Source: Amoebophrya sp. A120
Taxonomy: Eukaryota; Protista; Dinoflagellata
Length of the DNA stretch: 22,435 bases
Direction: 5' to 3'
Assembly (NCBI GenBank): GCA_905178155.1
Contig: CAJINV010000025.1
Coordinates: forward strand, 380,475 to 402,909
The translations under genes were made by a program, and so were the position numbers. Positions within the stretch are counted from its first letter, which is position 1; every line of letters starts with the position of its first letter. This document shows, in pieces, positions 1 to 22,435 of this stretch. The notes beneath the pieces are model-generated. The model saw only the letters and a program-made list of their open reading frames with translations. It made no database searches and was not told the origin of the DNA.

Positions 1-1110
1 GGCGAAAGCCCTAGGCCAGCGCGGGGACTCGGTCCCCGCGTCATGGCCTAGGGGCCAGCTGTAAGCGCTTCCCGGACACCGTGCAGCCAAGGGGCGAAAG
101 CCCTAGGCCAGCGCGGGGACTCGGTCCCCGCGTCATGGCCTAAACCCGCTGTACGCGCTTCCCGGACACCGTGCGGGCAAGGGGCGAAAGCCATAGGCCA
201 GCGCGGGGACCCGGTCCCCGCGTCGTGGCCTAGGGGCCAGCTGTAGGCGCTTCCCGGACACCGTGCGGCCAAGAGGCGAAAGCCCTAGGCCAGCGCGGGG
301 ACTCGGTCCCCGCGTCATGGCCTAGGGGCCAGCTGTAAGCGCTTCCCGGACACCGTGCGGCCAAGGGGCGAAAGCCCTAGGCCAGCGCGGGGACTCGGTC
401 CCCGCGTCATGGCCTAGGGGCCAGCTGTGAGTGAGCGCTTCCCGGGCACCGTGCGGCCAAGGGGCGAAAGCCCTAGGCCAGCGCGGGGGCTCGGTCCCCG
501 CGTCATGGCCTAGGGGCCAGCTGTGAGTGGGCGCTTCCCGGATACCGTGCGGCCAAGGGGCGAAAGCCCTAGGCCGAGTCCCCGCGTCATGGCCTCGGGG
601 CCAGCGGTATGCGGTAAGCGCTTCGCTCCCGGACACCGAGCGGCCAAGGGGCGAAAGCCCTAGGCCAGCGCGGGGACTCGGACGGCCCCCGCATCATGGC
701 CTAGGGGCCAGCTGTAAGCCCAGCGCTTCCCGGACACCGTGCGGCCAAGGGGCGAAAGCCCTAGGCCAGCGCGGGGACTCGGTCCCCGCGTCATGGCCTA
801 GGGGCCAGCTGTAAGCGCTTCCCGGACACCGTTCGGCCAAGGGGCGAAAGCCCTAGGCCAGCGCGGGGACTCGGCCCCCGCGTTATGGCCTAGGGGCCAG
901 CAGTGTGCGCCCCCCGGACACCGCTCTGCCAAGGGGCGAAAGCCCTAGGCCAGCGCGGGGACTTGGTCCCCGCGTCATGGCCTAGGGGCCAGCTTGGCGC
1001 GCTCCCCGGGAACGACACCGCGCGGCCAGGGAGGGGGCATGCAAAGAGACAGAAGCCCTAGGGCAATGCGGGGACTCTGTCGCCGCGCCATGACGTCGGG
1101 GCCGGCTGCA
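1..1110. repeat. GC-rich tandem satellite, ~92-bp unit, ~11 copies, decaying rightwards (remnants to ~1325); left end outside the window
   Basis: The anchor ggcgaaagcc recurs at 1, 93, 183, 275, 367, 463, 559, 650, 751, 843 and 935. Each unit holds nested inverted repeats: ccctaggcca/tggcctaggg and cgcggggac/gtccccgcg. Confidence 0.97.
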
Positions 1111-1328: not shown

Positions 1329-1560
1329 ACCTTGTTTGTAATGCGAAGTCTACATCATGATAAAATCTGTCATGCATGGCTAGCGAAATAAAGCCCCATT
1401 TCTTGTTTCCGAGAGAGAGGATTTGTCATGCGGATTAAGCATTGGAATAAGTGCTTGAAATCTGTGACGCTAGAGCTTGCATGCCAGACGATCTGGGTCA
1501 GGCAAAACCTGCATGACAGATCTCGCATTCTTCCAGACCCAGACATTTTTGCAATCCATA
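1329..1560. mobile_element. Introner, family 1 (gtctgggtctggaag TIR), left end lost at the satellite junction
   Basis: Right TIR cttccagacccagacatttttgcaatccata ends at 1560 and internal ttgtcatgc/gcatgaca motifs are present, but there is no left TIR. Left coordinate is approximate. Confidence 0.8.
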
Positions 1561-1561
1561 T

Positions 1562-4500
1562 GTGCAGGAGCATTACAAAAAGGAGATGCTTTGGGTTTTC
1601 GACGCGTTCGATATCTACACCATGAAATCTATGGAAGCGTCAGGTTTGAAATCGACAAAGTTGAAATGATTTGTCTTGCATAAAGTCTATACCAGTTGGA
1701 TGCCCAATTTCCAAGCGGTGCATGACAAATATCGGCACCGTCTGAATCCAGTTTGTCATGCTGTTTAGGGACAGAAGGCGTCTCTTGTCATGCTACTTTA
1801 GCAGCTGTATCGCAGACACTAGACAGGCTGAGCGTCGGCCTCACTTGCCATTCCTGCAAGAGAGGCACTTCATGCCTTGCAATTTATGCATGAGAAATTA
1901 TTTCAACCCTGTCGATTTCAATCCTGACGCTTCCATGAAATCCGACTTGTTCCGCTTGCTAGTCTATGAACTGCAAAAGTCTCGTACTCGTATAAATTTA
2001 AATGCATCACAAATTTCCCCAGCATGAAATTTGTCATGCGGATTTACCTTAAGAAAAAAATTTGTAATGCATGGCTGCAATTAGAATTACTACGAGTGCG
2101 ATACTTTTGCACAGGATATAGTCCTGTACCGGGAGGGCGGCGTGTACATAGACTGGAAGCTCATATCAACTGCAAATAAAATGTCTGGGTCTGGAAATTT
2201 GTAATGTTGCGTTGGGAATAGTGAATGCTCTGTAATGCACAGGCAAGCATGCGAAATATGAATATCTACGCTTTATTTTTGTGTTGCGTTTTTCGCATGA
2301 CAAGCTGCGTTTTTGCATGACAGGCAAAAGGGTCTCTTTTTGGACACGCATCACAAACTTTTTGGTCATGCCAGACAAGCATGACAAATCTCGCAATCTT
2401 CCAGACCCAGACATATTGGCATTTGATAGCTCACCCCCATCGTCGACTGGGACCAGCTGTTATCTTGTGCAAAAGTATTGTATCGTACTAGAATAAATTG
2501 CATTACAAATTGACTCAGCATTACAAATTTAAAAATTTGTAATGCTGATCGACATGGAGAAGAAGATGCATAAATGCAATTACTACGAGTATCGGATACT
2601 TTTGCACAGGATGGATGTTGGAGAAGGCGTTTTCCGGGACGGAAAAGTTCCGGTCCCCATATCAAGTGCAAATATGTCCTCTGGGTCTGGACGAATGCGA
2701 GGACTTGTGATGCTGCATTTGGATTCCAAAAAAAATCTGTATTGCGTGATGAGGAGCGACGGGAACAATGTGATTTTTCCTACGCGAAGAGGGCACTCGT
2801 CGTGCGGAAGTAGAGGCATCTTCAAGATGCATGCCCTCACAAAGTCTGTGAGGCTAGGGCATGCATCACAGATCGATCATGGCTCACGCGATGAAACGCG
2901 CATCACAAGTATCAGAATCTTCTTTCAGACCCAGATATTATATTTGCGATGCATACCCCAAGAAAAGTGACGAGAGACCCCGTCACGGGCAACATCGTTG
3001 CGGAGGAAAAAATGCAAAACAAGGACGACATTGGGCTCCTCGCCTCCTGCCAAGATTTCACGTTTGGGTTTGGGGTCCCTTACTTTTTCGAATCGTTTCC
3101 GGCTATCAAGCAGTTGCCCAGTTGGCCGAATCAAGACTCATCATTACAAGGCTTGACAAATGGCTTCCTCGCGGCGAAACCTCTAAACTTACTCCTCGGG
3201 GACATGCTCTACCATTTATTCCGCCGCGCGGAATTGCACAGCTACGGAAACACCGTTTGGGATACCACGGGGCCAGTAAGCCTCTACATGTCCTTATCAA
3301 ATGTAAAAATGTCTGGGTCTGGAAGAATGCATGTTTGTCATGCTTGTCTGGCATGACTATTAAATCTGTCATGCACGTTGCCCAAGAGCCGCGTTTTTCT
3401 GTCATGCGGAGACGCAATTTGTCATGCAGAATAGGCAACACCTACAAGCTCAGAAATTTGTCATGCTGAGCCAGCACTTGTGGGCTCCTCATGCTACGCC
3501 ACTCAGCATCACAAGTTTCCAGACCCAGACATTTTTACAGTTGATAGTCCTTACTCCGGGCAGACCCCACGAAGGTCCGAGAAATGCCACAGGTGATGTC
3601 GCAAAAGAACCCTGCGCAGACTCCTAGTGCGCCGTATCAAATGTAAAAATGTCTGGGTCTGGAAGGTTAGAACTTGTCATGCTAAATCTGAATGATGCAA
3701 AAATCTGTGTTGCGTGAGTACCAAAAGCTGTCCGCTTTTGACTAAATTGAGAGGGAGTTTTCTCATGCAGGAAAGGCATGATTGAGACCTCACAAAATCC
3801 GGCATGCTGGGTCTCACATTCCAGACCTCACGGGTCATGGAAAACCTGCATCACAAATCTTGCATTCTTCCAGACCCAGACACTTTTACATTTGATACGC
3901 CGAGCAGTTCGACATCTTCAAATCCCGCCGGCCTTCTCGACTCTGCGGGGTGGGCTATCCAACGCCAAGCGCGGCGGAAAAGCGGCGATGTCCTGGGAAA
4001 GTGGGAGTGTTTGCAGCTCCAGGGGGGGCCGGGCGATGCAGCCTTTCTTGCCTTCGACGGAAACGGAAATAAATGGTTTCCGAACCGCGAAGTCAGGTAT
4101 TCCCTTCCGTGGGATATGGCATTCTCAAAAAATGTTGCGATTCTCAATTGTTACATTTTTTTTCTTTTTATGCGGAATTGCAATCAGGATCCACACGATA
4201 AAGCTGCTTCGCATTACAAATTCTCGAAGAGCCCAACAATCTTCTGTGCGAAATCTGTCATGCAAGACGCGCAAGGTCCCCTCTTTCACTTCTGTTGCCG
4301 TTCTCGCATTACAACACTTGTCTTGAGAATGTAACGTTTGAGAACGCCATATGCGATGACCCAGGGCTCGAACAGCTCGCCTTGGTAAAAAAGGCGGGGT
4401 TCCACCACGCCGGCGCCGGGTGGAGTAACGACGACAGCTATGACAAGGAAAAATCCCCCTCCCCATATCAAAAGGAAGTTTCTGATGCTGGATTTGCGTA

Positions 4501-5817
4501 TACAAAAAATCAGGTATGTCTTGCAGTAGAGGGCTGCAGGCTCCTGCCAAGCCTGAGTACTTACTAGAGAGGTTTTGGCCTAGGCGCTTAGCATGAGAAA
4601 CGTCCATGCTGTAGGCCCAACAGCATAGCATCACAAACCGCCTGCATAATAAAGGCGGCAAAGCCTGTGGAGTTGTCTTCTTGCAAGACAGACGTGATTT
4701 GTAGTCTCAAATGAGCAAGACAAATTTGCGGAAACATACCTTTGCGATATGGGGAGGGGGGATTGTTCCTCTCAATAGCACCGCGCCGCTGCCGCCCGGA
4801 ATCCGCCGCCACCTCGTATCACATAAAAAAAGTGTTACAGTTACACACTTGTTGGAGTTTCTGCATCACAATCACAAAGTCGCGAGACTATAAGGGAAAA
4901 GAGGAAAACCTGCTGTGAAGATGCGCAGACTATAAGGGAAAACACGAATGATAATAAAATGAGGTTAGCAAGCATTTCCTGCATGACCACAGAGGTTGCG
5001 TTGTCTGTCTTGCTTGTCTCCCATCAGAGTGTGTAACTGTAACACTTTTTTCTTGCGATACCTCGGCGGGCAGAATTACATGGACGAATTATCCTGAGTA
5101 AAAACATCCGCCCCACACCAGAGTCAAGATGGGGATTTTGCAACACAAACCTAGAACTTTTGGGGGTCACGCATCACAAGTTGCAGTCCGTAGTGTAGTG
5201 CAGGTTCGCAAGGCCAGCTGCATCAGAAATCCATCTGCTCATCCTGTTTGCAGTATTACAAATTCCAAAACACGACTAACAATGCCTCTCCTGGCGATGC
5301 GCATTACAAATGTTCCCGTCATTGCAAATCTGCATGACAACTCTGGTGTGGGGACGTTTTTACTCAGGATATGAATGGAAGAAAAGGAAGTGGTTCAACG
5401 CCAACTGCTACCAGGAAGTTCCAGGGGTGCCTACCAATAGGAAAAATCCCCACTCAGTCCCCATACTGTTGAAAAGGTATATTTTTGGAAATTTGTGATG
5501 CTGATTTGTGATCACAAATCGTGTCTGTCTTGCGCGAAGGCATCTCCACAGACAACCGCCGCACTGCGCAGGCGGTTTGTCATGCTGCTGGGCCTACAGC
5601 GAGGACGTTTTTGTTTTTCAAATTATAAGCGCCTAGGCCAAAACCTCTCTACTCGCGCTTAGTATGGGCCTGCAGTGCTCTCCAGCAAGACAGCTCGGAT
5701 TTGTGTACACCAATCCAGCGTCGGAGATAGCCTTCGTTTTAATATGGGGAGGGGGGATTTTTCCTTTCGATAGTGCCATGGCCGGGCGTCGCGGATAAGG
5801 AGTACCAGTGTCGGTAA
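1562..5817 (+). CDS. 5'-partial glycosyltransferase family 32 gene (Gly_transf_sug / Och1-Sur1-like); 13 exons separated by 12 non-canonical introner introns
   Basis: Exons, keeping the left TSD copy: 1562-1611, 1922-1964, 2124-2163, 2434-2460, 2619-2659, 2961-3294, 3552-3634, 3903-4114, 4357-4438, 4783-4816, 5066-5089, 5377-5431, 5778-5817. Total 1065 nt = 354 aa + TAA, no internal stop. Protein: VQEHYKKEMLWVFDAFDPDASMKSDLFRLLVLYREGGVYIDWKLTPIVDWDQLLEKAFSGTEKFRSPRKVTRD...GLTNGFLAAKPLNLLLGDMLYHLF...VWDTTGPVSLYMSLLRADP...RHLGGQNYMDEWKKRKWFNANCYQEVPGVPWPGVADKEYQCR*. The motifs ksDlfR..vLy..GGvYiD, N.f.aa.P and tGP are GT32 hallmarks. Confidence 0.92.
1612..1916. mobile_element. Introner / non-canonical intron 1 of the GT32 gene (diverged)
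   Basis: tatctacaccatgaaat ... atttcaaccctgtcgat; TSD ttcga/ttcaa; removal joins DAF-(D/N)PDASMKSD in frame. Confidence 0.82.
1965..2118. mobile_element. Introner / intron 2, family 2 (tgcaaaagtatcg TIR)
   Basis: tatgaactgcaaaagtctcgtactcgta ... tacgagtgcgatacttttgcacaggata; perfect TSD tagtc; joins FRLLV-LYREGG. Confidence 0.93.
2164..2428. mobile_element. Introner / intron 3, family 1
   Basis: tatcaactgcaaataaaatgtctgggtctggaa ... ttccagacccagacatattggcatttgata; perfect TSD gctca. Confidence 0.93.
2461..2613. mobile_element. Introner / intron 4, family 2
   Basis: tatcttgtgcaaaagtat ... atacttttgcacaggatg; TSD gctgt/gatgt; frame preserved. Confidence 0.9.
2660..2955. mobile_element. Introner / intron 5, family 1 (diverged)
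   Basis: tatcaagtgcaaatatgtcctctgggtctgga ... tcagacccagatattatatttgcgatgcata; perfect TSD cccca. Confidence 0.9.
3295..3546. mobile_element. Introner / intron 6, family 1 (opposite orientation to 2164-2428)
   Basis: tatcaaatgtaaaaatgtctgggtctggaa ... ttccagacccagacatttttacagttgata; perfect TSD gtcct. Confidence 0.95.
3635..3897. mobile_element. Introner / intron 7, family 1
   Basis: Near-perfect ~31-bp TIR; perfect TSD cgccg; close relative of 13770-14031 and of 22186-22435 (inverted). Confidence 0.95.
4115..4351. mobile_element. Introner / intron 8
   Basis: tatggcattctcaaa ... tttgagaacgccata; TSD tggga/tgcga; frame preserved. Confidence 0.88.
4439..4777. mobile_element. Introner / intron 9, family 3 (aatccccctccccatat TIR)
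   Basis: tatgacaaggaaaaatccccctccccatatc ... gatatggggaggggggattgttcctctcaata; TSD acagc/gcacc (3 of 5 match); frame preserved. Confidence 0.85.
4817..5060. mobile_element. Introner / intron 10, family 4 (aaaagtgttacagttacac TIR)
   Basis: tatcacataaaaaaagtgttacagttacac ... gtgtaactgtaacacttttttcttgcgata; perfect TSD cctcg. Confidence 0.94.
5090..5371. mobile_element. Introner / intron 11
   Basis: tatcctgagtaaaaacatccgccccacaccagag ... ctctggtgtggggacgtttttactcaggata; TSD cgaat/tgaat. Confidence 0.93.
5432..5772. mobile_element. Introner / intron 12, family 3
   Basis: taccaataggaaaaatcccc ... ggggatttttcctttcgata; perfect TSD gtgcc. Confidence 0.92.
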
Positions 5818-5845: not shown

Positions 5846-6826
5846 CAATGAATGCAAAAGCAAAGAACATGGACGAAATTTGTCTTCCTCGTTGAGGAAA
5901 CGAAACCACGTGCCACCACGCAACAAAGGAGTAGAAACAGCACAAACAGGATAACACGATCAGGATGTCAGCTTGTTGTAGGCGGTTCTGGGTCGGAAAT
6001 TCCACGCTGGTCATAGTTTTTACTTCAACTTTCGCACAACGCAACAGCAGATCCGCTCGTGCAGAAGTTGTAGCTGTAGCACGACTACGCAATAAACACT
6101 TTTAATTTTACCCTCAGGAACAACACACTACTACAAAATATCACTCCAAGTACTAAAGCTGTAACTTTTTTTTCACGAACGACCAAAAAAGCACAGGACG
6201 AATATCGAGCACACCGGTGCAAGCTCGAAAACCCCGGTTAGAGTCAGGCATCTGGGTTTCGTAATCTCTCAGGCGTCGGCGCATTGTTTCTATTCAGATT
6301 AGCACCGCAGTACAAGGCTTAACCGCAAGAGGACCACACTCCCTACCAATTTTGAAAGGCGAAAACTTTTGAGCGAGGCACTGCCGCCGATGGTGGGCCA
6401 AGTTCTTTGACGTCTGCGAAACGCGATCGAGTTCTAAAAAATAAAAACATCTTACGCATGCGCCAATCAACTATCAAAAAAGTGTGAGCCTTGTGTAAAT
6501 TCATTTATTTTCCTAGTTTTTAGTCTCTTGGGTCGTCTTAGTCGGCCACACAAACGTGTGTGGCTGCGACGGCGGGAGTTGACTCTGCAGGGACCGCTTA
6601 CGGAGTTAGCCCTGGGTCCCCCAAGCTAGTACTGTAGGAAAGCAAATCGAAGTAGGAGCAATAAGAGTCGAACGCTTTACGTTGTACCTAAGTCCCGCGG
6701 CGCAGACGAAGAAATGTGAGAAATCAAGTCAGTCGGCTGAGCAAGAACTCAGAGCCATTATATATATTTATCATTATAGCGCAATGAATGCAAAAGCAAA
6801 CATGGACGAAATTTATCTTCCTCGTT
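5846..6826. repeat. 45-48-bp direct repeat pair (5846-5893, 6782-6826) bracketing ~0.89 kb of unique DNA
   Basis: caatgaatgcaaaagcaaa(gaa)catggacgaaattt(g/a)tcttcctcgtt occurs twice, 936 bp apart. Confidence 0.9.
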
Positions 6827-7498: not shown

Positions 7499-7707
7499 TA
7501 TCGCAAGAAAGAACTGTTTCACTGTAAACCTGTGATGCAGAGAACGAAACACCAAAGTGTTTGTCTTGCTACACCTGCAACGCAATGGCTTTTTAAGCGT
7601 GTTTTCCCTTGGGAAACGCGCATGGCAAATTATCTGTGTCATGTGTAAGAAACTTGTGATGCAGATCTTGCAAAACCATCACAGTGAAGCAGTTTTTTCG
7701 TGGGATA
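7499..7707. mobile_element. Introner-type element, family 5
   Basis: tatcgcaagaaagaactgtttcactgt ... acagtgaagcagttttttcgtgggata; TSD agttg/tgttg; reverse-complement homolog of 15996-16205. Confidence 0.92.
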
Positions 7708-7767
7708 TGTTGATATAATTCGTCGTCCGAGTGCCGTCGCGTGGAAGACAGCCCCGCGCACTTCCTC

Positions 7768-8091
7768 TATCAAGGTGAAAAAAGCCCCCACCCCATATCG
7801 GAAACGGAAGATTCGCGAATTTGTGATGCTGTATTTGAGTACACAAATCGACGTGTATTGCTAGAAGGCCAAGAGACGAAGCTGCGGCCTAAATTGCAGG
7901 TAATCTGTCATGCTGTTTCCCACTTCCAGTTGCCTCCTGTCATCCTGGCGCTGCAAGGCTTTCCCACGTTAGGCAGCACTACAGTCCGGCGCATCTTTTG
8001 CCTTCTAGCATCACAAAGCTGATTTGTGGCCACAAATCTGCATCACAGATTTCCGTTTTGATATGGGGAGGGGGCATTTTTAATTGTAATA
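7768..8091. mobile_element. Introner-type element, family 3
   Basis: tatcaaggtgaaaaaagcccccaccccatatc ... gatatggggagggggcatttttaattgtaata; perfect TSD tcctc. Confidence 0.92.
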
Positions 8092-10700: not shown

Positions 10701-11609
10701 TATGAGATGGACTGAGCGATTCAAAATCAACGGATTCAAAAATTTTCTTTCATGTTCCAAGCTTTTCCTGACTCTTGAAAAGAACAGCAGCATGGATGGG
10801 CTGTGTTCTGGGTGTTTTTTTGCGTTCGCCGAAACGTCGCCCAGAAGAGTATCAAGCGAACAAGCTAGGTCGATCTCAACTTGACTTCGTGACTTAGGCG
10901 TACGTGAACGCAGAAAAACCGGGAAGGGGAACAAGGCGAGTGTCTGCATTCATAAACGTGAAGAATTCGCAGAAGCAAGGGGCAACAGAGTAGGCTACAC
11001 AGCGGATACCCTCGAAGCCCAAGCCTGCCACTATTTGGCCCCAAGGCGCTTTTTTTGTTGGCATTTTTTGTTGCATTTTTTTGTTGGCATAGTAGCCCGC
11101 GCGGCCTCCGTGGACCTGGTCGAGGCTGCCGCAGGTTTACAACCTTTACGCGAGCAGGCCCAAAGGCATTCCCACCACGGCGCACCAGAAGCCGCCGGCC
11201 ATGCCCGGCGGTCGGCCCGCTTGGGTTTTGGAATGGGCCTTGGGTTGCCCTTCACATGGCTGACGCGCGTTTTTCCCGGGACACAACTTGGCGGCACTGT
11301 TGCGTCTTGTTTTTCCGATCATTTCAAGGCTTCATGCGCACGCGCTGACTTCATCCCCTACTTTGCAGCCTGTAAGTATAAAATGGCAAGTAGTTGCCTC
11401 AAGTTGAGACCGGCCACGTTGGCCTCTTTCGTAGTCTTCGGCCTACATATTTTACTTCCATAACCCGGCGCCGACATCTCCGCCACTTACCTGAAACTGC
11501 TCCGCGCGACGCCGAATCCGGGGACGTTTTGGAGGAGTTGATGGGATGCGTTTTAGTTGAAAAAAAATTTTTGAATCGCTTGGGTTTGAATCGCTCAGTC
11601 CATCTCATA
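10701..11609. mobile_element. 909-bp non-autonomous TIR element with TAT...ATA ends
   Basis: tatgagatggactgagcgattcaaa / tttgaatcgctcagtccatctcata is a perfect 25-bp TIR, extending imperfectly to ~50 bp. Perfect TSD acaag. The empty-site motif gcccacaaggtacct is visible at ~11718 and ~15579. Confidence 0.93.
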
Positions 11610-11643: not shown

Positions 11644-13410
11644 AAACACGAAGCGGAAGCGGTGAAGAGAAACACGCAATTCCTGCGGTGAACGAAGAGA
11701 AACGCGTGCGCTCCGGCCGCCCACAAGGTACCTACTTGATTCCCAATCTAGGCATTGCATTTTTCCAGACATCTCATGCTCGGCATCACAGATGATAGCT
11801 AGGACTAGGTCGCGCAGCACCAGCGCGAACCTCGTGAGCGCCAGAATGGGTTACTAACCACCTCTGTGGCCCCATTTTTGTTCTCCCGTGGCCAGCCCTT
11901 GCCTACAAAAATGGACGACACCGGGGGAGCACAGGAGACGCGCAGCCAATGCCCACGCCGATGTCGGTGCGCAATCAATCTGGAGAGGGAGGCGAAGATG
12001 GCGCGCGCATGCTAGAGAAGCACGCACTATCAAAGGAGCAACTAAATCACTTCACATCTGAATCATAGGGCCAAAAAAAAAAATTTTTGAGTATTAATAT
12101 AGCTTAGCATGAAGAAATGACTTCAGTTGTATGCACATGATGACGATGCGAATATGCCACCAGAATGGCAGTTTTGAAGGCTCAAATGAAGAGCTTTGAT
12201 TTTGAACTAGATAGTTGATAGCTGCAGGACGATCTAGATAAGTAGCTAGCTGAAGATCATGGTTTATTTGATGAAAAAACAAAGAATATTAGAAGGATTT
12301 CGCCTTGTGGCTTCCGGCCGGCAGCCTCTCGCCAAGCTGGAGCGAGGAGCTGCTACGCCTCCAATGTGGAGAGCTGCTGGGAGACATAAACCGCCAATGA
12401 GCCGAAGAGCTGGCACTCCGTGACGAAGCAGCCCAACGGATTCGGAGCTGGTACTCCGTGACGAAGCAGGCCAACGGATTCGCCCGAATCCGTTGGGCTG
12501 CTTCGTCACGGAGTTCCAGCCCTCCGGCAGAAGAAGCACACATTCTTCCCCGCAGAGCTCCACGTTGGCGACGTCCCAGCTCCTCCAGCCTGGCGGGAGG
12601 CTGCCTGCCGGAAGCCACCAGGCGAAATCCCTTTACTTTTCTTTGTTTTTTCATTAAATAAACCATGATCTTCAGCTACTTATTTAACTAGATCTTCCTG
12701 CAGCTATCAACTACCTAGTTTAATTAAGAAGCTCAACAGCAGAGCCTTCTTCTGCCGTACCTGGTTTGCATTCTGCATCATATCAACGCAATCATTCATA
12801 AGTGAAAGCCACATGATTTGTTACTTGAAATACATTAAAAAAATTTTTTTTTTGGCCCTATGATTCAGATGTGAAGTGATTCATTTGCTCCTTTGATAGC
12901 ACGCGCGGCTTGTTTACTCATCTTGACGCGAATATATATAATTTAGCGAGCTCGTGGCCCCTCTCTCCGGCGACGCAGTGGCCCGCCACTGCCCGCTAGC
13001 GACCTCTGTTGGGGAGGGTTCGGGACTTGTTGCAGCCTCTGTTGCACCCGGCGCTGCGACCTCTCGGCGCAGTGCTGGAGCACGGTTCGACCCACGTCTG
13101 TGGGCGGACAAGTGCGACGCCCGCAGCCACCTCTGTGGCGCGGACGTCGCGGCGCGGTCCCTGCTGCACGCCTCGCTACTGTATCTAGTAGCACAAAAGA
13201 CGCTGCGAAGCAGCGCAGATACACTTTATACAGAGCCGGAGTTGTTCCACCACTGTGAAGGGTGTCGTGGCCTTTTGTTGAGAACATACGGACTAGAGCA
13301 GCGGCCCCATGCGGCCGCAGAACTGCGGGGATTTGGGAAGTAGTTTGTGTTCGCCTCACGATGATCACCAAGATGCTACCCAAGTCACATCATGGATCAG
13401 GTACCAACAG
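11644..13410 (+). repeat. ~0.9-kb backbone repeat, copy A (contains the 12028-12898 foldback); a partial extra copy of its first ~105 bp starts at 10625
   Basis: Collinear blocks shared with 13411-22165: gcggtgaagagaaacacgca; gcccacaaggtacct; taggtcgcgcagcaccagcgcgaacctcgtgagc; gcctacaaaaatg; ggaggcgaagatg; cccgctagcgacctctg; gtgctggagcacgg; cggcgcggtccctgctgc; aggtaccaacagggcggaagc. Confidence 0.88.
12028..12898. mobile_element. 871-bp foldback element (palindromic over its whole length), TAT...ATA ends
   Basis: The start tatcaaaggagcaa..aatcacttcacatctgaatcatagggccaaaaa pairs with the end ttttggccctatgattcagatgtgaagtgatt..ttgctcctttgata. The arms stay complementary to a centre at ~12483 (aacggattcg-cc-cgaatccgtt). 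Flanked by gcac; absent from backbone copy B at ~16805. Confidence 0.93.
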
Positions 13411-13448: not shown

Positions 13449-14031
13449 TATCAAATGTAAAAATGTCTGGGTCTGGAAGATTCTAAACCTGTAATGCTGT
13501 CTCTGGATTCTAAAAAATTTGTATTGCATGACCAGCAAAAGGACTCCAGTTTGTGCTACGTGAAGAGGGCATTTCTCATGCGGTAGAGGCACCACAAAGT
13601 CCTCTGAAAATCTGTGATGCTAGGGCATGCATCACAGACATCATCGGCCATTCAAAATATGCATGACAAACCTGGCAATCTTCCAGACCCAGACACTTTT
13701 GCAATGGATAGGTGGGCGCGACCTGCCACCCGGTGGGGCGGGAGGAATTCGACGTGCCTCCACCAGCACTATCAAGTGTAAAAGTGTCTGGGTCTGGAAG
13801 ATTGCAACTTGTCATGCTAAATCTGAAGCATGCAAAAATTTGTTTTGCATGAGTGCCAAAAGCTGTCCGCTTTTGACCAAGTTGAGAGGGAGTTTCTCAT
13901 GCAGGAAAGGCATGATAGAGCCCTCAAAGAATCTGTCATGCTGGGTCTCGCATTCCAGACCTCATGAGTCATGGAAAACCTGCATCACAAATCTTGTATT
14001 TTTCCAGACCCAGACATTTTTACATTTGATA
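13449..14031. mobile_element. Composite element: two family-1 introners (13449-13710, 13770-14031) enclosing a 59-bp exon-like fragment
   Basis: The TSD ttacg flanks only the outer ends (13444-13448 and 14032-14036). The inner flanks (ggtgg, agcac) match neither outer flank. Confidence 0.88.
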
Positions 14032-14065: not shown

Positions 14066-14372
14066 TATCAAAGTGAAAAAAGCCCCCACCCCATATTCAA
14101 AAGACGATTTGTGTTGGTGGATTCGTGTACTACGCAAATGAGCTTTGTAATTGCAGCAAGAGCTTGTCTGCATATAATTCTATAGCCCATTTGGGTGCTG
14201 CGCGCCCGGCTAGCAGCTGAGCATGTGAAACAAGGCTGACATATTAGGCGAAAACGCATGACAGACTCGCTGAACAATGCGCCACAAGGGTTCCGCTTGC
14301 CTTGTACGCAAGACAAAGCATCGCAAATTTTCCTCTCGATGTGGGGACGGGGGTGGATTTTTCCTTACGATA
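14066..14372. mobile_element. Introner-type element, family 3
   Basis: tatcaaagtgaaaaaagcccccaccccatat ... ggggtggatttttccttacgata; TSD caaga/cgcga (3 of 5 match). Confidence 0.83.
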
Positions 14373-14399: not shown

Positions 14400-14550
14400 T
14401 ATGAACTGCAAAAGTATCGTATAAATGCATGACAAATTCCCTCAGCATGAGATTGAGCAATTAAAATTTGTAAGTATATGCGTATGTGACTTAACAAAAA
14501 GATTTGTAATGCATGACTGCAATACGAGTACGATACTTTTGCACAGGATT
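14400..14550. mobile_element. Introner-type element, family 2
   Basis: tatgaactgcaaaagtatcgta ... tacgatacttttgcacaggat; right end and TSD are degenerate. Confidence 0.83.
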
Positions 14551-14603: not shown

Positions 14604-14969
14604 TATCCTGTGCAAAAGTATCGGATTCGTATTGCAGTCATGCATTACAACAAATCTTTTTGTTAAGGTAAATCAGCATTGCAAATCAGTCAGGGTAGAG
14701 GAGCAATCCTCGGGCACATAGATAACAAAACGCTGCACATCTGAAAGAGTTTTTTTGAAAGAAGAAAAGAACAGACGTGCACCATCAGAAGTGTAGTGCT
14801 GGCGGTAGCACTTGTGCTGCACCATCAGAAGTGCGTAACTCGCATGCCGGGCGTGCCATGTCAGGATGTCAGGATAACGCAGAAGCTCAGTCAGTCAGTC
14901 AGCATTGCAAATTTTATCTCTCATGCTGAGAAATGCACTTATACGAGTACGATACTTGTGTAGTTCATA
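14604..14969. mobile_element. Introner-type element, family 2, inverted, with a ~0.21-kb internal insertion
   Basis: tatcctgtgcaaaagtatcg ... cgatacttgtgtagttcata; perfect TSD tgtcc. Confidence 0.9.
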
Positions 14970-14991
14970 TGTCCGGCGGGAAAATATCGAT

Positions 14992-15566
14992 ATGAGAGTG
15001 CAAAAAAACAACTCGATCTCCACGTACTACCCAGCTGCAGCCGCCCGGGACGAGAGTGCGGCTCTACTGCTGAGCGCGGAAGATAACGCAGTGGGACAGC
15101 ACGTTGAACAGGAGACGGAAAATGTTGAAAAAACCCCCGCCCACGGGGGCTGTTGCCAAGACTGCTGCACGAAAAAGTGCGTGCTCATCCTTCTCCTCAT
15201 ATTTCTCGTTCTCGCAGGCGGTGCTTGCGTTTTAATTTTCGTTCCCTGGTTCGACGTATCAAATGTAAAAATGTCTGGGTCTGGAAGGATGCGAACTTGT
15301 GATGCTGTCTTCGGATTCTAAAAAAATCTGTATTGCATGACAAGCAATTATAGGGCTCCAGTTTGTGCTTCGCGGGAGGGCATTTGTCATGCGGAATAGG
15401 CATCAAGAGGGCCTCTAAAGCTCTGTGATCATGCTAGGTCATGCATTCCAGACCTCATAGGTCATGGAAAACCTGCATCACAAGTCTTGCAACCTTCAAG
15501 ACCCAGACATATTTGCAATCCATACGACGGTTGGAGTGAATCTTTGTACACGAGATGGAGAGGAGG
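14992..15566 (+). pseudogene. Captured N-terminal fragment of a single-pass (probably type II) membrane protein gene, containing one introner
   Basis: MRVQKNNSISTYYPAAAARDESAALLLSAEDNAVGQHVEQETENVEKTPAHGGCCQDCCTKKCVLILLLIFLVLAGGACVLIFVPWFD continues in frame as GWSESLYTRWRG after removing 15257-15529. It then runs into backbone repeat DNA and stops at ~15650. Confidence 0.65.
15257..15524. mobile_element. Introner, family 1
   Basis: tatcaaatgtaaaaatgtctgggtctggaag ... agacccagacatatttgcaatccata; perfect TSD cgacg. Confidence 0.94.
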
Positions 15567-15677
15567 TGCGTTCCTGTCGCCCACAAGGTACCTAATTCAT
15601 TCTCATATTCTAAGCATAAGGCACTCCAGATCGGTCACATAATTCTAGGCATCAACTGCACAAATAGGACTAGGTCG

Positions 15678-15934
15678 TATGGATTGCAAAAATGTCTGGG
15701 TCTGGAAGAATGCAAGTTTGTCATGCTTGTCTGGCATGGCTCGAAAATCTGTGTTGCATAGGCGCGAAAAGGCCCTCTTGCCTGTCATGCAAAAACCCAG
15801 TTTGCCTTTGCCATGCGGAATACGTAAGACATGGCAGCCAAAAAATTTGTCATGCGTAGGTGCGTATTGCAGTGCGTCTACCATTCACTTTTAGCATTAC
15901 AAGTTTCCAGACCCAAACATTTTTACATTTGATA
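15678..15934. mobile_element. Introner-type element, family 1, inserted in backbone DNA
   Basis: tatggattgcaaaaatgtctgggtctggaa ... ttccagacccaaacatttttacatttgata; perfect TSD ggtcg. The empty site taggtcgc is seen at ~11806 and ~16540. Confidence 0.95.
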
Positions 15935-15995: not shown

Positions 15996-16205
15996 TATCC
16001 CACGAAAAAACTGTTTTACTGTGATGATCTTGCAAGATCTGCATCACAGGTTTGTATACACATGACACAGAAAATTTGCATTGTGCGCTTCCCAAGGGAA
16101 AACACGCTAAAAAATCCAATGTCTTGCAGGCGTAGCAAGACAAATCGTTCCGTGCTCCATTCTCTGCATCACAAGTTCACAGTGAAACAGTTTTTTCTTG
16201 CGATA
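15996..16205. mobile_element. Introner-type element, family 5
   Basis: tatcccacgaaaaaactgtttt ... aaacagttttttcttgcgata; perfect TSD cggga. Confidence 0.94.
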
Positions 16206-16253: not shown

Positions 16254-16466
16254 TATCCCACGAAAAAAGTGTTACAGTTACACATTTGTTGTCAATTCCG
16301 CAACACAAATTTTCTCTGCATGAGAGAGAAAACTTGTAATGCGAAGATCATAAGGGAAAACAGGAAGGAAAGGAGGCTCCGAAGCATTTCCTGCATGAGA
16401 AAGGTTGTCTCTGTTGCCAGTCTTGCATGACAATGTGTAACTGTTGTAACACTTTTTTCTTCTATA
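16254..16466. mobile_element. Introner-type element, family 4, right flank replaced
   Basis: tatcccacgaaaaaagtgttacagttacac ... gtgtaactgttgtaacacttttttcttctata; the left flank gctgt has no matching right copy. Confidence 0.85.
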
Positions 16467-18840: not shown

Positions 18841-19013
18841 TATCTTGGATTCTAGATTTAAATAAAAACAACCTATTCCGGGGGGGAGGTTGTTTTTATG
18901 TGTGGAGAAATTTAGAATCACGGCCACAGTGCAAGATCCTGAATTTCGTCGCACATAAAAACGACCTATGCCCGGGAATAGGCTGATCTTTTGCAAATCT
19001 AGAATCCAGGATA
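18841..19013. mobile_element. 173-bp foldback MITE-like element with TAT...ATA ends
   Basis: tatcttggattctagattt / aaatctagaatccaggata, with inner arms cctattcc.gg / ccgggaatagg and gtttttatgtg / cacataaaaac; flanks ttgca/tggga. Confidence 0.75.
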
Positions 19014-19031: not shown

Positions 19032-19290
19032 GAGCAGAGGTCGATTTTATGGCCGCGGAATTTTCGCGAAAACCGACTCAACCTGTTGGAAGCAGAGGTT
19101 GATTTTATCGTCGTGAAATTTCGCGGCCATAAAATCGACCTCTTGGAAGCAGAGGCTGATTTGATTGCTCCGAAATTTTCGCAGACACAGAGTCAACCTT
19201 TTGGAAGCAGAGGTTGATTTTATGGTCGCGAAATTTCCGGAGGCATAGAATCGACCTCCTGGAAGCAGAGGCTGATTCTATGGCCACGAA
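19032..19290. repeat. Minisatellite of 57-58-bp self-complementary units, ~4.5 copies
   Basis: (g)agcagagg recurs at 19032, 19089, 19146, 19204 and 19262. Units fold, e.g. gaggttgattttat...ataaaatcgacctc. Confidence 0.88.
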
Positions 19291-20346: not shown

Positions 20347-20535
20347 AAACGCGAGCGGGAAACTTCCACCATTGCAAAATCCCAATTTGTGTTTCACCCA
20401 AACCCGAGCGGGGAATTTCCATCATTGCAAATTGTAGCTTGCCTCTCACCCAAACCCGAGCGGGGAATTTCCATCATTGCAAATTGTAGCTTGCCTCTCA
20501 CCCAAACCCGAGCGGGGAATTTCCATCATTGCAAA
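20347..20535. repeat. 52-bp minisatellite, ~3.6 copies
   Basis: caaacccgagcggggaatttccatcattgcaaa at 20399, 20451 and 20503, with a diverged first copy at ~20347. Confidence 0.93.
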
Positions 20536-22185: not shown

Positions 22186-22435
22186 TATCAAATGTAAAAA
22201 TGTCTGGGTCTGGAAGAATGCAAGATTTGCGATGGAGGTTTTCCATGACCCATGAGGTCTAGAATGCGAGACCCAGCACGACAGATTCTTTGAGGTCTCT
22301 ATCATGCCTTTCCTGCATGAGAAACTTCCTCTCAACTTGGTCAAAAGCGGACAGCTTTTGGCACTCACGCAACACAGATTTTTGCATCATTTAGATTTAG
22401 CGTGACAAGTTCTAATCTTCCAGACCCAGACATTT
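22186..22435. mobile_element. Introner, family 1, inverted relative to 3635-3897; right TIR cut by the window edge
   Basis: Begins tatcaaatgtaaaaatgtctgggtctggaag; the window ends in cttccagacccagacattt; left flank gagac. Confidence 0.93.

What the first reader, a model, noticed from the sequence alone, without database searches (positions are those of the whole stretch)
1562..5817. Hidden 13-exon gene in which every intron is a TIR transposon with no GT-AG boundary
Seen: 12 elements, each TAT...ATA (three slightly varied) with TIRs and a 5-nt flanking direct repeat (7 perfect, 4 with one mismatch, 1 with two). One rule, deleting the element plus one repeat copy, restores a 354-aa open frame across all 12 junctions. 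It rebuilds the GT32 motif SDLFRLLV|LYREGGVYID across a junction. Exons are as short as 24-27 nt and about 75% of the gene span is element. Sliding the junction through each TSD never gives GT...AG. Established (recalled, should be verified): non-canonical introners with inverted and direct repeats were described in Amoebophrya spp. (Farhat et al. 2021), with the removal mechanism unresolved. Inference: the exons stayed intact while the elements diverged, so the gene has been under selection and is precisely repaired, by structure-guided RNA splicing or by DNA excision.
Basis: partly seen in the sequence, partly recalled or inferred. Interest (0 to 1): 0.92.

Follow-up and report, generated by a model that had tools for sequence, protein, structure and literature searches.

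The report
Transposon introns spliced without splice signals
A sugar-transferase gene of the marine parasite Amoebophrya is broken up by at least twelve small hairpin-shaped transposons that are missing to the exact base from what appear to be its transcripts despite lacking normal splice signals; this kind of intron is already published for this organism, but how it is cut out is still unsolved, and this locus would allow the cut site to be mapped.

Summary
Twelve TAT...ATA inverted-repeat elements with 5-nt flanking repeats interrupt a GT32 glycosyltransferase gene. Removing each element plus 5 nt gives 353 aa, colinear with four Amoebophrya sp. A120 paralogs. No cut offset gives GT-AG. In one RNA-like run, 8 of 12 junctions are supported: 3 as listed joints, 5 from loose ends or contig length. 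A DNA-like run keeps the elements. So removal is likely at RNA level. The ends match the A120 introner motif TAT-N7-AAA of Farhat 2021 (9 of 12 exact). Gozashti 2025 already reports tens of introner introns in single A120 genes. Corrections: the gene is 5'-incomplete, has a 13th element, and has at least 14 exons. Added here: related elements sit in opposite orientations; a shared internal motif occurs in all 12; empty sites confirm target-site duplication; one mismatched repeat suggests a cut after repeat position 3, though another points the other way. The mechanism is open: hairpin-guided relaxed spliceosome about 50%, nuclease plus ligase about 35%. The scan noted similar hairpin introns in other protist genomes.

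The parts
1335..1560 (.). E0: 13th element, 5' arm missing from the window; ends ATA followed by the 5-nt repeat at 1561-1565
   Evidence: 73% identical over 1362-1560 to element 15257-15524, weaker match to about 1335 (D10). Two RNA-like contigs carry an upstream GT32 exon joined at 1558 (table 7), which is not in the window.
1562..1629 (+). first coding exon in the window (no start codon; the gene continues upstream)
   Evidence: 21 of 23 aa identical to P0003 and P0004
1630..1937 (.). E1, 308 nt, repeat AAATC/AAATC
   Evidence: joint skipping 313 nt in X4 at depth 954.5
1943..1964 (+). exon, 22 nt net, part of the GT32 SDLFR motif
1965..2118 (.). E2, 154 nt, repeat TAGTC/TAGTC
   Evidence: protein homology only, no RNA joint among the rows shown
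2124..2163 (+). exon with the GGVYIDWK motif (DxK form of the DxD site)
2164..2428 (.). E3, 265 nt, repeat GCTCA/GCTCA; same family as E6 in opposite orientation
   Evidence: 71% over 267 nt, minus strand; homology only
2434..2460 (+). exon, 27 nt net
2461..2613 (.). E4, 153 nt, repeat GCTGT/GATGT
   Evidence: paralog residue favours the upstream copy at position 2; homology only
2619..2659 (+). exon, 41 nt net
   Evidence: 13 of 14 aa identical to each of 4 paralogs
2660..2955 (.). E5, 296 nt, repeat CCCCA/CCCCA
   Evidence: joint skipping 301 nt in X4 (1157.3) and X1 (112.4); element-exon piece 2859-2985 intact in X1 at 57.7
2961..3294 (+). largest exon, 334 nt, with the NGF-A-KP and TGP motifs
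   Evidence: 81-85% identical to four A120 PF04488 proteins; X4 contig 3009-3200 with 0 differences, depth 922.8
3295..3546 (.). E6, 252 nt, repeat GTCCT/GTCCT
   Evidence: joint skipping 257 nt in X4 (1165.1) and X1 (74)
3552..3634 (+). exon, 83 nt; this copy lacks about 40 aa that the paralogs have in this region
   Evidence: record 12
3635..3897 (.). E7, 263 nt, repeat CGCCG/CGCCG; 90-92% identical copies at 13770-14031 and 22186-22435
   Evidence: removal inferred from X4 record 12
3903..4114 (+). exon, 212 nt net
   Evidence: X4 record 12, 3898-4112 with 0 differences
4115..4351 (.). E8, 237 nt, repeat TGGGA/TGCGA; the RNA-like contig keeps the upstream letter at repeat position 3
4357..4438 (+). 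exon, 82 nt net, the most diverged from the paralogs (10-12 of 27 aa)
4439..4777 (.). E9, 339 nt, repeat ACAGC/GCACC; same family as E12 in opposite orientation
4783..4816 (+). exon, 34 nt net
4817..5060 (.). E10, 244 nt, repeat CCTCG/CCTCG
   Evidence: X4 loose end before 5060 equals exon letters 4796-4810
5066..5089 (+). exon, 24 nt net
5090..5371 (.). E11, 282 nt, repeat CGAAT/TGAAT
   Evidence: homology only
5377..5431 (+). exon, 55 nt net
5432..5772 (.). E12, 341 nt, repeat GTGCC/GTGCC, starts TAC
   Evidence: X4 loose end before 5773 equals exon letters 5418-5426
5778..5817 (+). last coding exon, stop TAA at 5815-5817; transcript-like contig continues past 6200
   Evidence: 11-12 of 12 aa identical to the paralogs; X4 record 16

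Best explanation
This is the 3' part of a GT32 glycosyltransferase gene of Amoebophrya (strain A120 or a close relative) whose introns are small inverted-repeat transposons, and each is likely cut out of the RNA together with exactly one copy of its 5-nt target duplication, most likely by a relaxed spliceosome guided by the element's own hairpin rather than by GT-AG. Shown: the anatomy, the frame, the protein family, and joined forms in an RNA-like run at 8 of 12 junctions while a DNA-like run keeps the elements. Inferred, insertion: a cut-and-paste, integrase-like transposase inserts the element and duplicates 5 nt; empty sites carry one copy. Inferred, splicing: in the pre-mRNA the arms pair, and the cuts are set by distance from the TAT and ATA ends, because removal stays at element+5 where the two repeat copies differ (E8, E9). 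The signals are symmetric, so either orientation works. Most speculative step: the 5' cut falls one base before TAT, so the element supplies the U at +2 and A at +3 of a normal 5' splice site, and the hairpin replaces recognition of G+1 and the 3' AG.
For: Frame and register. Family: a profile from 149 other hits scores the joined protein at 98 bits against 33 for the best raw frame; 12 of 12 sampled members are PF04488. RNA level: X4 joints at E1, E5, E6 skip 313, 301 and 257 nt, each element+5. The 425-nt record 12 equals the predicted length with E7-E10 removed. X4 depth is about 900-1570 on exons and 3' region, and 5-30 in four bins inside elements. X1 keeps element-exon pieces at depth 41-58. 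Each retained element has 1-7 in-frame stops. Hairpins: z -3.6 to -10.3 in 12 of 12. Orientation: E3/E6 and E9/E12 are inverted relatives. Cut after repeat position 3: E8 contig; E4 paralog residue agrees. For a spliceosome: A120 keeps 83 of 89 spliceosomal proteins and U2, U4, U5, U6, and 15% of its canonical introns share the same repeat design (PMC7789003). Fritillaria is a precedent for a spliceosome that handles MITE-derived non-GT-AG introns.
Against: Nothing here tests the catalyst. With a cut one base before TAT, only 2 of 12 introns start GT and 0 of 12 end AG, and no branch point was identified. A stable terminal stem would hide the bases that U6 normally reads (recalled). At E9 the paralog residues favour the downstream repeat copy (+44 summed score), which conflicts with one fixed cut. 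The arms show no bias to G-U over A-C pairs on the transcribed strand (11:11 and 14:15), so there is no sign of selection for RNA pairing. TAT and ATA are not predicted to pair in 2 of 12 (E2, E5). U1-70K, U1A and U1C homologs are listed for A120, so the 'lost U1' argument is weak. X4 is only guessed to be RNA, X1's kind is not on record, both are contigs that drop rare forms, and only one run of each kind covered the gene. E2, E3, E4 and E11 have no RNA row among those shown.
Confidence: 0.5

Rival explanations
1. Same gene and same RNA-level removal, but without the spliceosome: a hairpin-recognising nuclease makes staggered cuts at a fixed distance from the stem base and a ligase such as RtcB joins the exons. 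This would be a precise version of SOS splicing or of euglenid nonconventional intron removal.
For: No conserved dinucleotide at any cut. Orientation independence. SOS splicing is triggered by paired inverted repeats and needs RTCB (PMC12779559). Euglenid TIR/TSD introns leave as full-length circles without lariats (PMC11282704).
Against: SOS splicing is described as imprecise, with indels, whereas the listed joints here are one exact form each (contigs would hide minor forms). RtcB, AKAP17A and CAAP1 homologs in Amoebophrya were not looked for. No G-U bias in the arms.
Confidence: 0.35
2. The joined forms are reverse-transcriptase template switches across a hairpin between short direct repeats, and the gene is dead or not repaired in vivo.
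For: Hairpin plus short repeat is the known recipe for false non-canonical junctions (PMC2923612, abstract; the hairpin part is recalled). X4, if RNA, is presumably cDNA.
Against: The frame stays open over 353 codons and gap-free against paralogs, while related elements in the gene have drifted to about 70% identity. One contig lacks four elements in a row at depth 631. At E8 the contig keeps the upstream letter, which would need a jump on only 3 nt of homology.
Confidence: 0.04
3. The elements are excised from DNA, in a somatic or stage-specific way like ciliate IESs, and the transcript comes from the repaired DNA or from an element-free near-identical copy.
For: DNA-like X1 holds joined forms at E5 (112.4) and E6 (74).
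Against: Those depths match paralog-specific exon variants beside the same junctions (102.6 at 2992-2994; 71.3 at 3255-3256). This copy's own element-exon pieces and exon letters sit at single-copy depth 41-58 in X1. X4's exon letters are this copy's (0 differences). Element-free paralogs explain the joins better, though linkage was matched by depth, not read through.
Confidence: 0.05
4. The elements are self-splicing or self-cleaving RNAs.
For: Strong folding and a shared 8-nt motif in all 12.
Against: No Rfam match at gathering threshold in the window. Lengths of 153-341 nt, unrelated interiors and both orientations argue against one catalytic fold.
Confidence: 0.03

Closest known systems
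Introner elements among the non-canonical introns of Amoebophrya sp. A120 (Farhat et al. 2021, PMC7789003; sections 10, 11, 16, passages, and supplement part 3 of 5 read; figures not visible)
   Same: Inverted repeats starting TAT, 7 variable nt, then AAA; direct repeats of 3-5 nt (5 bp in the legend of Fig. S19); mean non-canonical intron 240 nt; no GT-AG; RNA-seq supported; mechanism left open.
   Different: Nothing in kind. This gene copy did not turn up as a protein of 196-2000 aa. The sections read do not report orientation independence, the shared internal motif, empty sites, or the use of mismatched repeats to place the cut.
Amoebophrya A120 introners in Gozashti et al. 2025 (PMC12130899; 4 passages read)
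   Same: Diverse TIR DNA transposons generating tens of introns in a single A120 gene; one TIR family with LTR-integrase-like, Ginger-reminiscent ORFs.
   Different: The passages concern mobilisation, not removal. The 12 elements here (153-341 nt) are too short to encode a transposase; the mobiliser was not identified.
Euglenid nonconventional introns (review PMC11282704, section 6 read)
   Same: TIRs that bring the ends together, TSD-like repeats, non-canonical junctions, unknown removal mechanism.
   Different: Different lineage and end consensus (pyrimidine|purine junctions, CAG/CTG pairing). They are shown to leave as circles; not tested here.
SOS splicing in C. elegans and human cells (PMC12779559; passages and Discussion read)
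   Same: Removal of TIR transposons from mRNA without GU-AG, triggered by arm pairing.
   Different: SOS splicing uses several cut sites and leaves indels; here one exact product is seen per listed joint and the repeat is removed.
Fritillaria borealis non-canonical introns (review section; bioRxiv 2025.08.15.670264 abstract)
   Same: MITE-derived introns with TIR and TSD, removed precisely.
   Different: They have preferred AG-AC or AG-AT ends and a shown spliceosomal route through divergent U2AF; here no dinucleotide is conserved.
GT32 / PF04488 glycosyltransferases of A120: CAD7975138.1, CAD7968390.1, CAD7968398.1, CAD7955094.1
   Same: Colinear, 81-85% identical in the largest exon, nearly the same C-terminus.
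   Different: This copy lacks about 40 aa in a variable linker, and its N-terminal exons are outside the window.

Membership tests
Amoebophrya A120 introner elements (Farhat 2021) | 8-20 nt inverted repeat between the two intron ends | tested here: met
   12-19 of the first 20 nt match in 12 of 12, with longer gapped matches
Amoebophrya A120 introner elements (Farhat 2021) | 3-5 nt direct repeat at the exon/intron boundaries | tested here: met
   5 nt: 8 perfect, 3 with one mismatch, 1 with two
Amoebophrya A120 introner elements (Farhat 2021) | IR motif TAT, 7 variable nt, at least AAA | tested here: met
   exact at the 5' end in 9 of 12; E12 has TAC-N7-AAA; E1 and E8 lack the A run at 11-13
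Amoebophrya A120 introner elements (Farhat 2021) | repeated in the genome | tested here: met
   10 of 12 have a relative elsewhere in the window; E1 matched only itself, E8 and E11 gave no listed hit but see X1 depths far above single copy across element bins. Strictly, 9 of 12 have a listed relative.
Amoebophrya A120 introner elements (Farhat 2021) | absent from the transcript, non-canonical ends | tested here: met
   8 of 12 supported in X4, whose RNA status is a guess; 0 of 72 cut positions canonical
Amoebophrya A120 introner elements (Farhat 2021) | lies in the A120 genome itself | tested here: inconclusive
   All 4 close protein hits are A120 but none is identical; no genome is held for the window
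MITE / non-autonomous TIR DNA transposon | target-site duplication made on insertion (empty site has one copy) | tested here: met
   In-window empty sites for two elements outside the gene: GGTCG once at 11804 and 16538, twice around 15678-15934; ACAAG once at 11720 and 15580, twice around 10701-11609. Joined E5 and E6 sites in X1.
MITE / non-autonomous TIR DNA transposon | cognate transposase with matching TIRs | not tested
   No genome available; not searched
U2-type spliceosomal intron | GT/GC...AG ends | tested here: not met
   0 of 72 cut positions; 5 of 12 junctions have no in-frame GT-AG pair within about 15 nt, and the listed joints at E5 and E6 do not use the nearby ones
U2-type spliceosomal intron | lariat intermediate, spliceosome dependence | not testable with these tools
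   needs lariat sequencing or inhibition
SOS splicing substrate | imprecise excision at several sites with indels | tested here: inconclusive
   one exact form per listed joint, but contigs drop rare variants and 783 joints were not shown
SOS splicing substrate | needs AKAP17A, CAAP1, RTCB | not tested
   homologs not searched
GT32 glycosyltransferase (PF04488) | profile match of the sugar-binding region | tested here: met
   Indirect: the 4 paralogs pass the Pfam cut-off over the region aligned to the first exons, and a profile of 149 other hits gives 98 bits on the joined protein. Three single exons gave no Pfam hit. PF04488 itself was not run on the joined protein.
GT32 glycosyltransferase (PF04488) | DxD metal-binding motif | tested here: inconclusive
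   The site reads D-W-K; K at that position is the usual form among the relatives (103 of 133 with the motif found, of 149; D in 12). Activity untested.

The most novel reading that the evidence does not exclude
Amoebophrya has a second, spliceosome-independent splicing system that recognises any TAT...ATA hairpin in either orientation, perhaps through a protein bound to the shared TGTnWTGC motif, cuts at a fixed 5-nt stagger and religates seamlessly. That would be a precise, genome-wide counterpart of SOS splicing, handling tens of thousands of introns and making transposon insertion into exons nearly free.
Probability: 0.3. Interest if true: 0.88.

Novelty: new member of a known kind. Interest (0 to 1): 0.42.

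Why it matters
The kind of intron is known. The open question is how Amoebophrya removes the more than 60% of its introns that lack GT-AG. Three searches of the held library listed no paper whose title or opening abstract announces the mechanism; most subscription journals are not held. This locus is a good test bed: it appears well expressed, has 12 elements in 4.3 kb in both orientations, has element-free paralogs, and has four junctions whose repeat copies differ and so mark the cut position. Either outcome would matter: a spliceosome that needs neither GT nor AG, or a precise ligase-based route.

Tried and rejected
No genome is held for the window, so no genome-wide counts were possible. 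No holder on record as RNA was listed. Raw RNA runs X10 and X11 did not cover the exons (214 and 4 reads, all partial, on element pieces): no evidence either way. X10's reads match the first 87 nt of E7 with other flanks, so they come from another copy. Eight of the 12 listed runs were never laid, so E2, E3, E4, E11 and replicate support stay open. Pfam on three single exons: 0 of 3 hit. G-U versus A-C bias in the arms: none. Position of repeat mismatches over 22 elements: 3, 3, 2, 2, 0 at positions 1-5, too few to place the cut. Empty sites for the 12 gene elements inside the window: none; the blast test gave one self hit among 20 queries, and the two empty-site pairs for outside elements came from motif look-up. 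Rfam: 0 hits. Elements at 7499-8091 restore no long frame when removed (longest 83 aa). Uniform removal of element+2, which would put a T at +2 and an A at -2, was rejected: it stops at residue 332 and the listed joints are element+5. The NT...AN pattern in Farhat's Table S4 was not used as evidence because aligners choose among equivalent positions. A weak TcdA/TcdB Pfam hit in P0006 (E 0.017, under the cut-off) was treated as general glycosyltransferase likeness and not pursued.

Full report
Observation. They are 153-341 nt, begin TAT and end ATA (E1 and E4 end ATG, E12 begins TAC), and match at 12-19 of their first 20 arm positions. The 5-nt flanking repeats are perfect in 8, have one mismatch in 3 and two in 1. 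Removing element plus 5 nt gives 353 codons and a TAA at 5815-5817, with 75.0% of the span removed. The other 17 uniform rules give 23-332 residues. None of 72 equivalent cut positions is GT-AG, GC-AG or AT-AC. Every element, if kept, brings 1-7 in-frame stops.

The gene. The largest exon finds four proteins, all from Amoebophrya sp. A120, 81-85% identical and all PF04488. The joined protein is colinear with them to the last residue. At each of the 12 junctions, element+5 scores better than all six alternatives tried; the margin is small at E7 (3 points), which lies in a variable linker. A profile built from 149 other hits (12 of 12 sampled are PF04488) scores the joined protein at 98 bits and the best unjoined frame at 33, of 839 targets. 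The DxD site reads DWK, the usual form in this group (103 of 133). The gene is incomplete: the frame starts in mid-domain, a 13th element ends at 1560 and lacks its 5' arm, and a 92-nt tandem array fills 1-1009. Two X4 contigs join an upstream GT32 exon at 1558 that is not in the window. So the gene has at least 14 exons. None of the four hits is identical to the window, so I cannot say whether this is A120 itself or a close relative.

RNA or DNA. Twelve runs were listed and four were laid. X10 and X11 (raw RNA) did not cover the exons. X4 is guessed to be RNA and behaves so: depth about 900-1570 on exons and the 3' region, 5-30 in four bins inside elements. It shows joints at E1, E5 and E6 that skip 313, 301 and 257 nt, each element+5. 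Loose ends equal the preceding exon at E10 and E12. A 425-nt contig has exactly the length predicted if E7, E8, E9 and E10 are all removed; this assumes it abuts the next contig with a 30-nt overlap, as its neighbours do. That supports 8 of 12 junctions. E2, E3, E4 and E11 are not among the rows shown (783 joints were not displayed). X1, kind not on record, behaves as genomic DNA: unique pieces, including element-exon borders, sit at depth 41-58 and element bins far higher. X1 also holds joined E5 and E6 sites at 112 and 74. These match the depths of neighbouring paralog-specific exon variants (102.6 and 71.3), so I read them as paralogs that never received those elements. That link is by depth only. 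DNA excision is disfavoured, not excluded. This rests on one run of each kind.

Transposon origin. Two elements outside the gene have empty sites in duplicated sequence within the window, each with one copy of the 5-nt repeat. Relatives of E7 at 90-92% identity lie at 13770 and 22186. E3/E6 and E9/E12 are family pairs in opposite orientation. E6 and E12 have direct RNA-like support, E9 has length support, E3 has homology only. A motif TGT[ACG][AT]TGC or its reverse complement occurs 46 times in 3,134 nt of elements, at least twice in each of the 12, against 1.3 in shuffles (maximum 4 of 100) and once in 1,077 nt of exon. I picked the motif by eye from these same elements. It could be a transposase site or a splicing-factor site.

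Where the cut falls. Removal stays at element+5 where the repeat copies differ (E8 one mismatch, E9 two), which suggests measurement from the element ends rather than perfect repeat matching. At E8 the contig matches through 4112 with no difference, so it keeps the upstream letter at repeat position 3. At E4 the paralog residue also favours the upstream copy. At E9 the paralogs favour the downstream copy, against a single fixed cut, although that exon is the most diverged. All 12 elements fold strongly (z -3.6 to -10.3, 30 shuffles each), which any inverted repeat would. The terminal triplets are not predicted to pair in E2 and E5, and there is no G-U over A-C bias on the transcribed strand (11:11).

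What is known. Farhat et al. 2021 (PMC7789003; sections 10, 11, 16, passages, supplement passages and part 3 of 5; figures S19-S25 not visible and may show more on repeat geometry) report over 60% non-canonical introns in A25 and A120, 8-20 nt inverted and 3-5 nt direct repeats, and 29,850 repeated introns in A120. Their A120 motif is TAT, seven variable bases, then AAA. Nine of 12 elements fit it exactly at the 5' end. They found 83 of 89 spliceosomal proteins and no U1 snRNA, but list U1-70K, U1A and U1C. Gozashti et al. 2025 (PMC12130899; passages) report tens of introner introns in single A120 genes. Two reviews repeat this (PMC11282704 passages and section 6; PMC11453091 passages). SOS splicing (PMC12779559; passages and Discussion) is hairpin-triggered and RTCB-dependent but imprecise, and its main text does not mention Amoebophrya. 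Fritillaria shows a spliceosome adapted to such introns (abstract). Searches listed no paper that announces the Amoebophrya mechanism, judged from titles and abstract openings. Four earlier scan notes describe similar hairpin or non-AG introns in other protist genomes; I did not check them.

Verdict. I commit to hairpin-guided removal by a relaxed spliceosome at 0.5, with nuclease plus ligase at 0.35, DNA excision 0.05, RT artefact 0.04 and self-splicing 0.03. The preference for the spliceosome rests on precision, retained machinery and precedent, not on a test. Interest is 0.42, earned by the open mechanism and by the mismatched repeats, which make the cut site mappable from existing data.

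Noticed in passing
window 14970-15575 (+): 5' part of a second GT32 paralog with a predicted membrane segment; matches P0006 residues 62-180 across element 15257-15524 (repeat CGACG). Removing 14604-14969 and 15257-15524 opens a 148-aa frame. Its middle exons are not in the window. Suggests a tandem array or a fragment.
   Followed up: partly
window 13449-14031: Compound element: two 262-nt family copies around a 59-nt foreign piece, with a 5-nt duplication (TTACG) only on the outside. Looks like two introners moving together with a captured exon-sized segment.
   Followed up: partly
window 1-1009: 92-nt GC-rich tandem array, 10.8 copies, with a decayed tail to about 1330, lying where E0's 5' arm should be. 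If E0 is still spliced, its arms pair across more than 1.5 kb.
   Followed up: no
window 10701-11609 and 12028-12898: Longer TAT...ATA elements (909 and 871 nt). The second has a 4-nt rather than 5-nt flanking repeat (GCAC), a test case for fixed-distance versus repeat-guided cutting.
   Followed up: partly
window 7499-7707 and 15996-16205: Two copies of one element family, 86% identical, in opposite orientation; the first is in sequence with no long restored frame.
   Followed up: partly
window 14066-14372, 14400-14549, 16254-16465, 18841-19013: Further elements of the same type with decayed flanking repeats, apparently outside coding sequence.
   Followed up: no
window 5876-6200: X1 differs from the window at 5908 and by an 8-nt gap at 6146 in the one contig shown, while X4 matches exactly; a second copy of the 3' region or a strain difference.
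   Followed up: no
window 19033-19290 and 20347-20535: 58-nt and 52-nt tandem repeats among other dispersed repeats in the last 6 kb.
   Followed up: no
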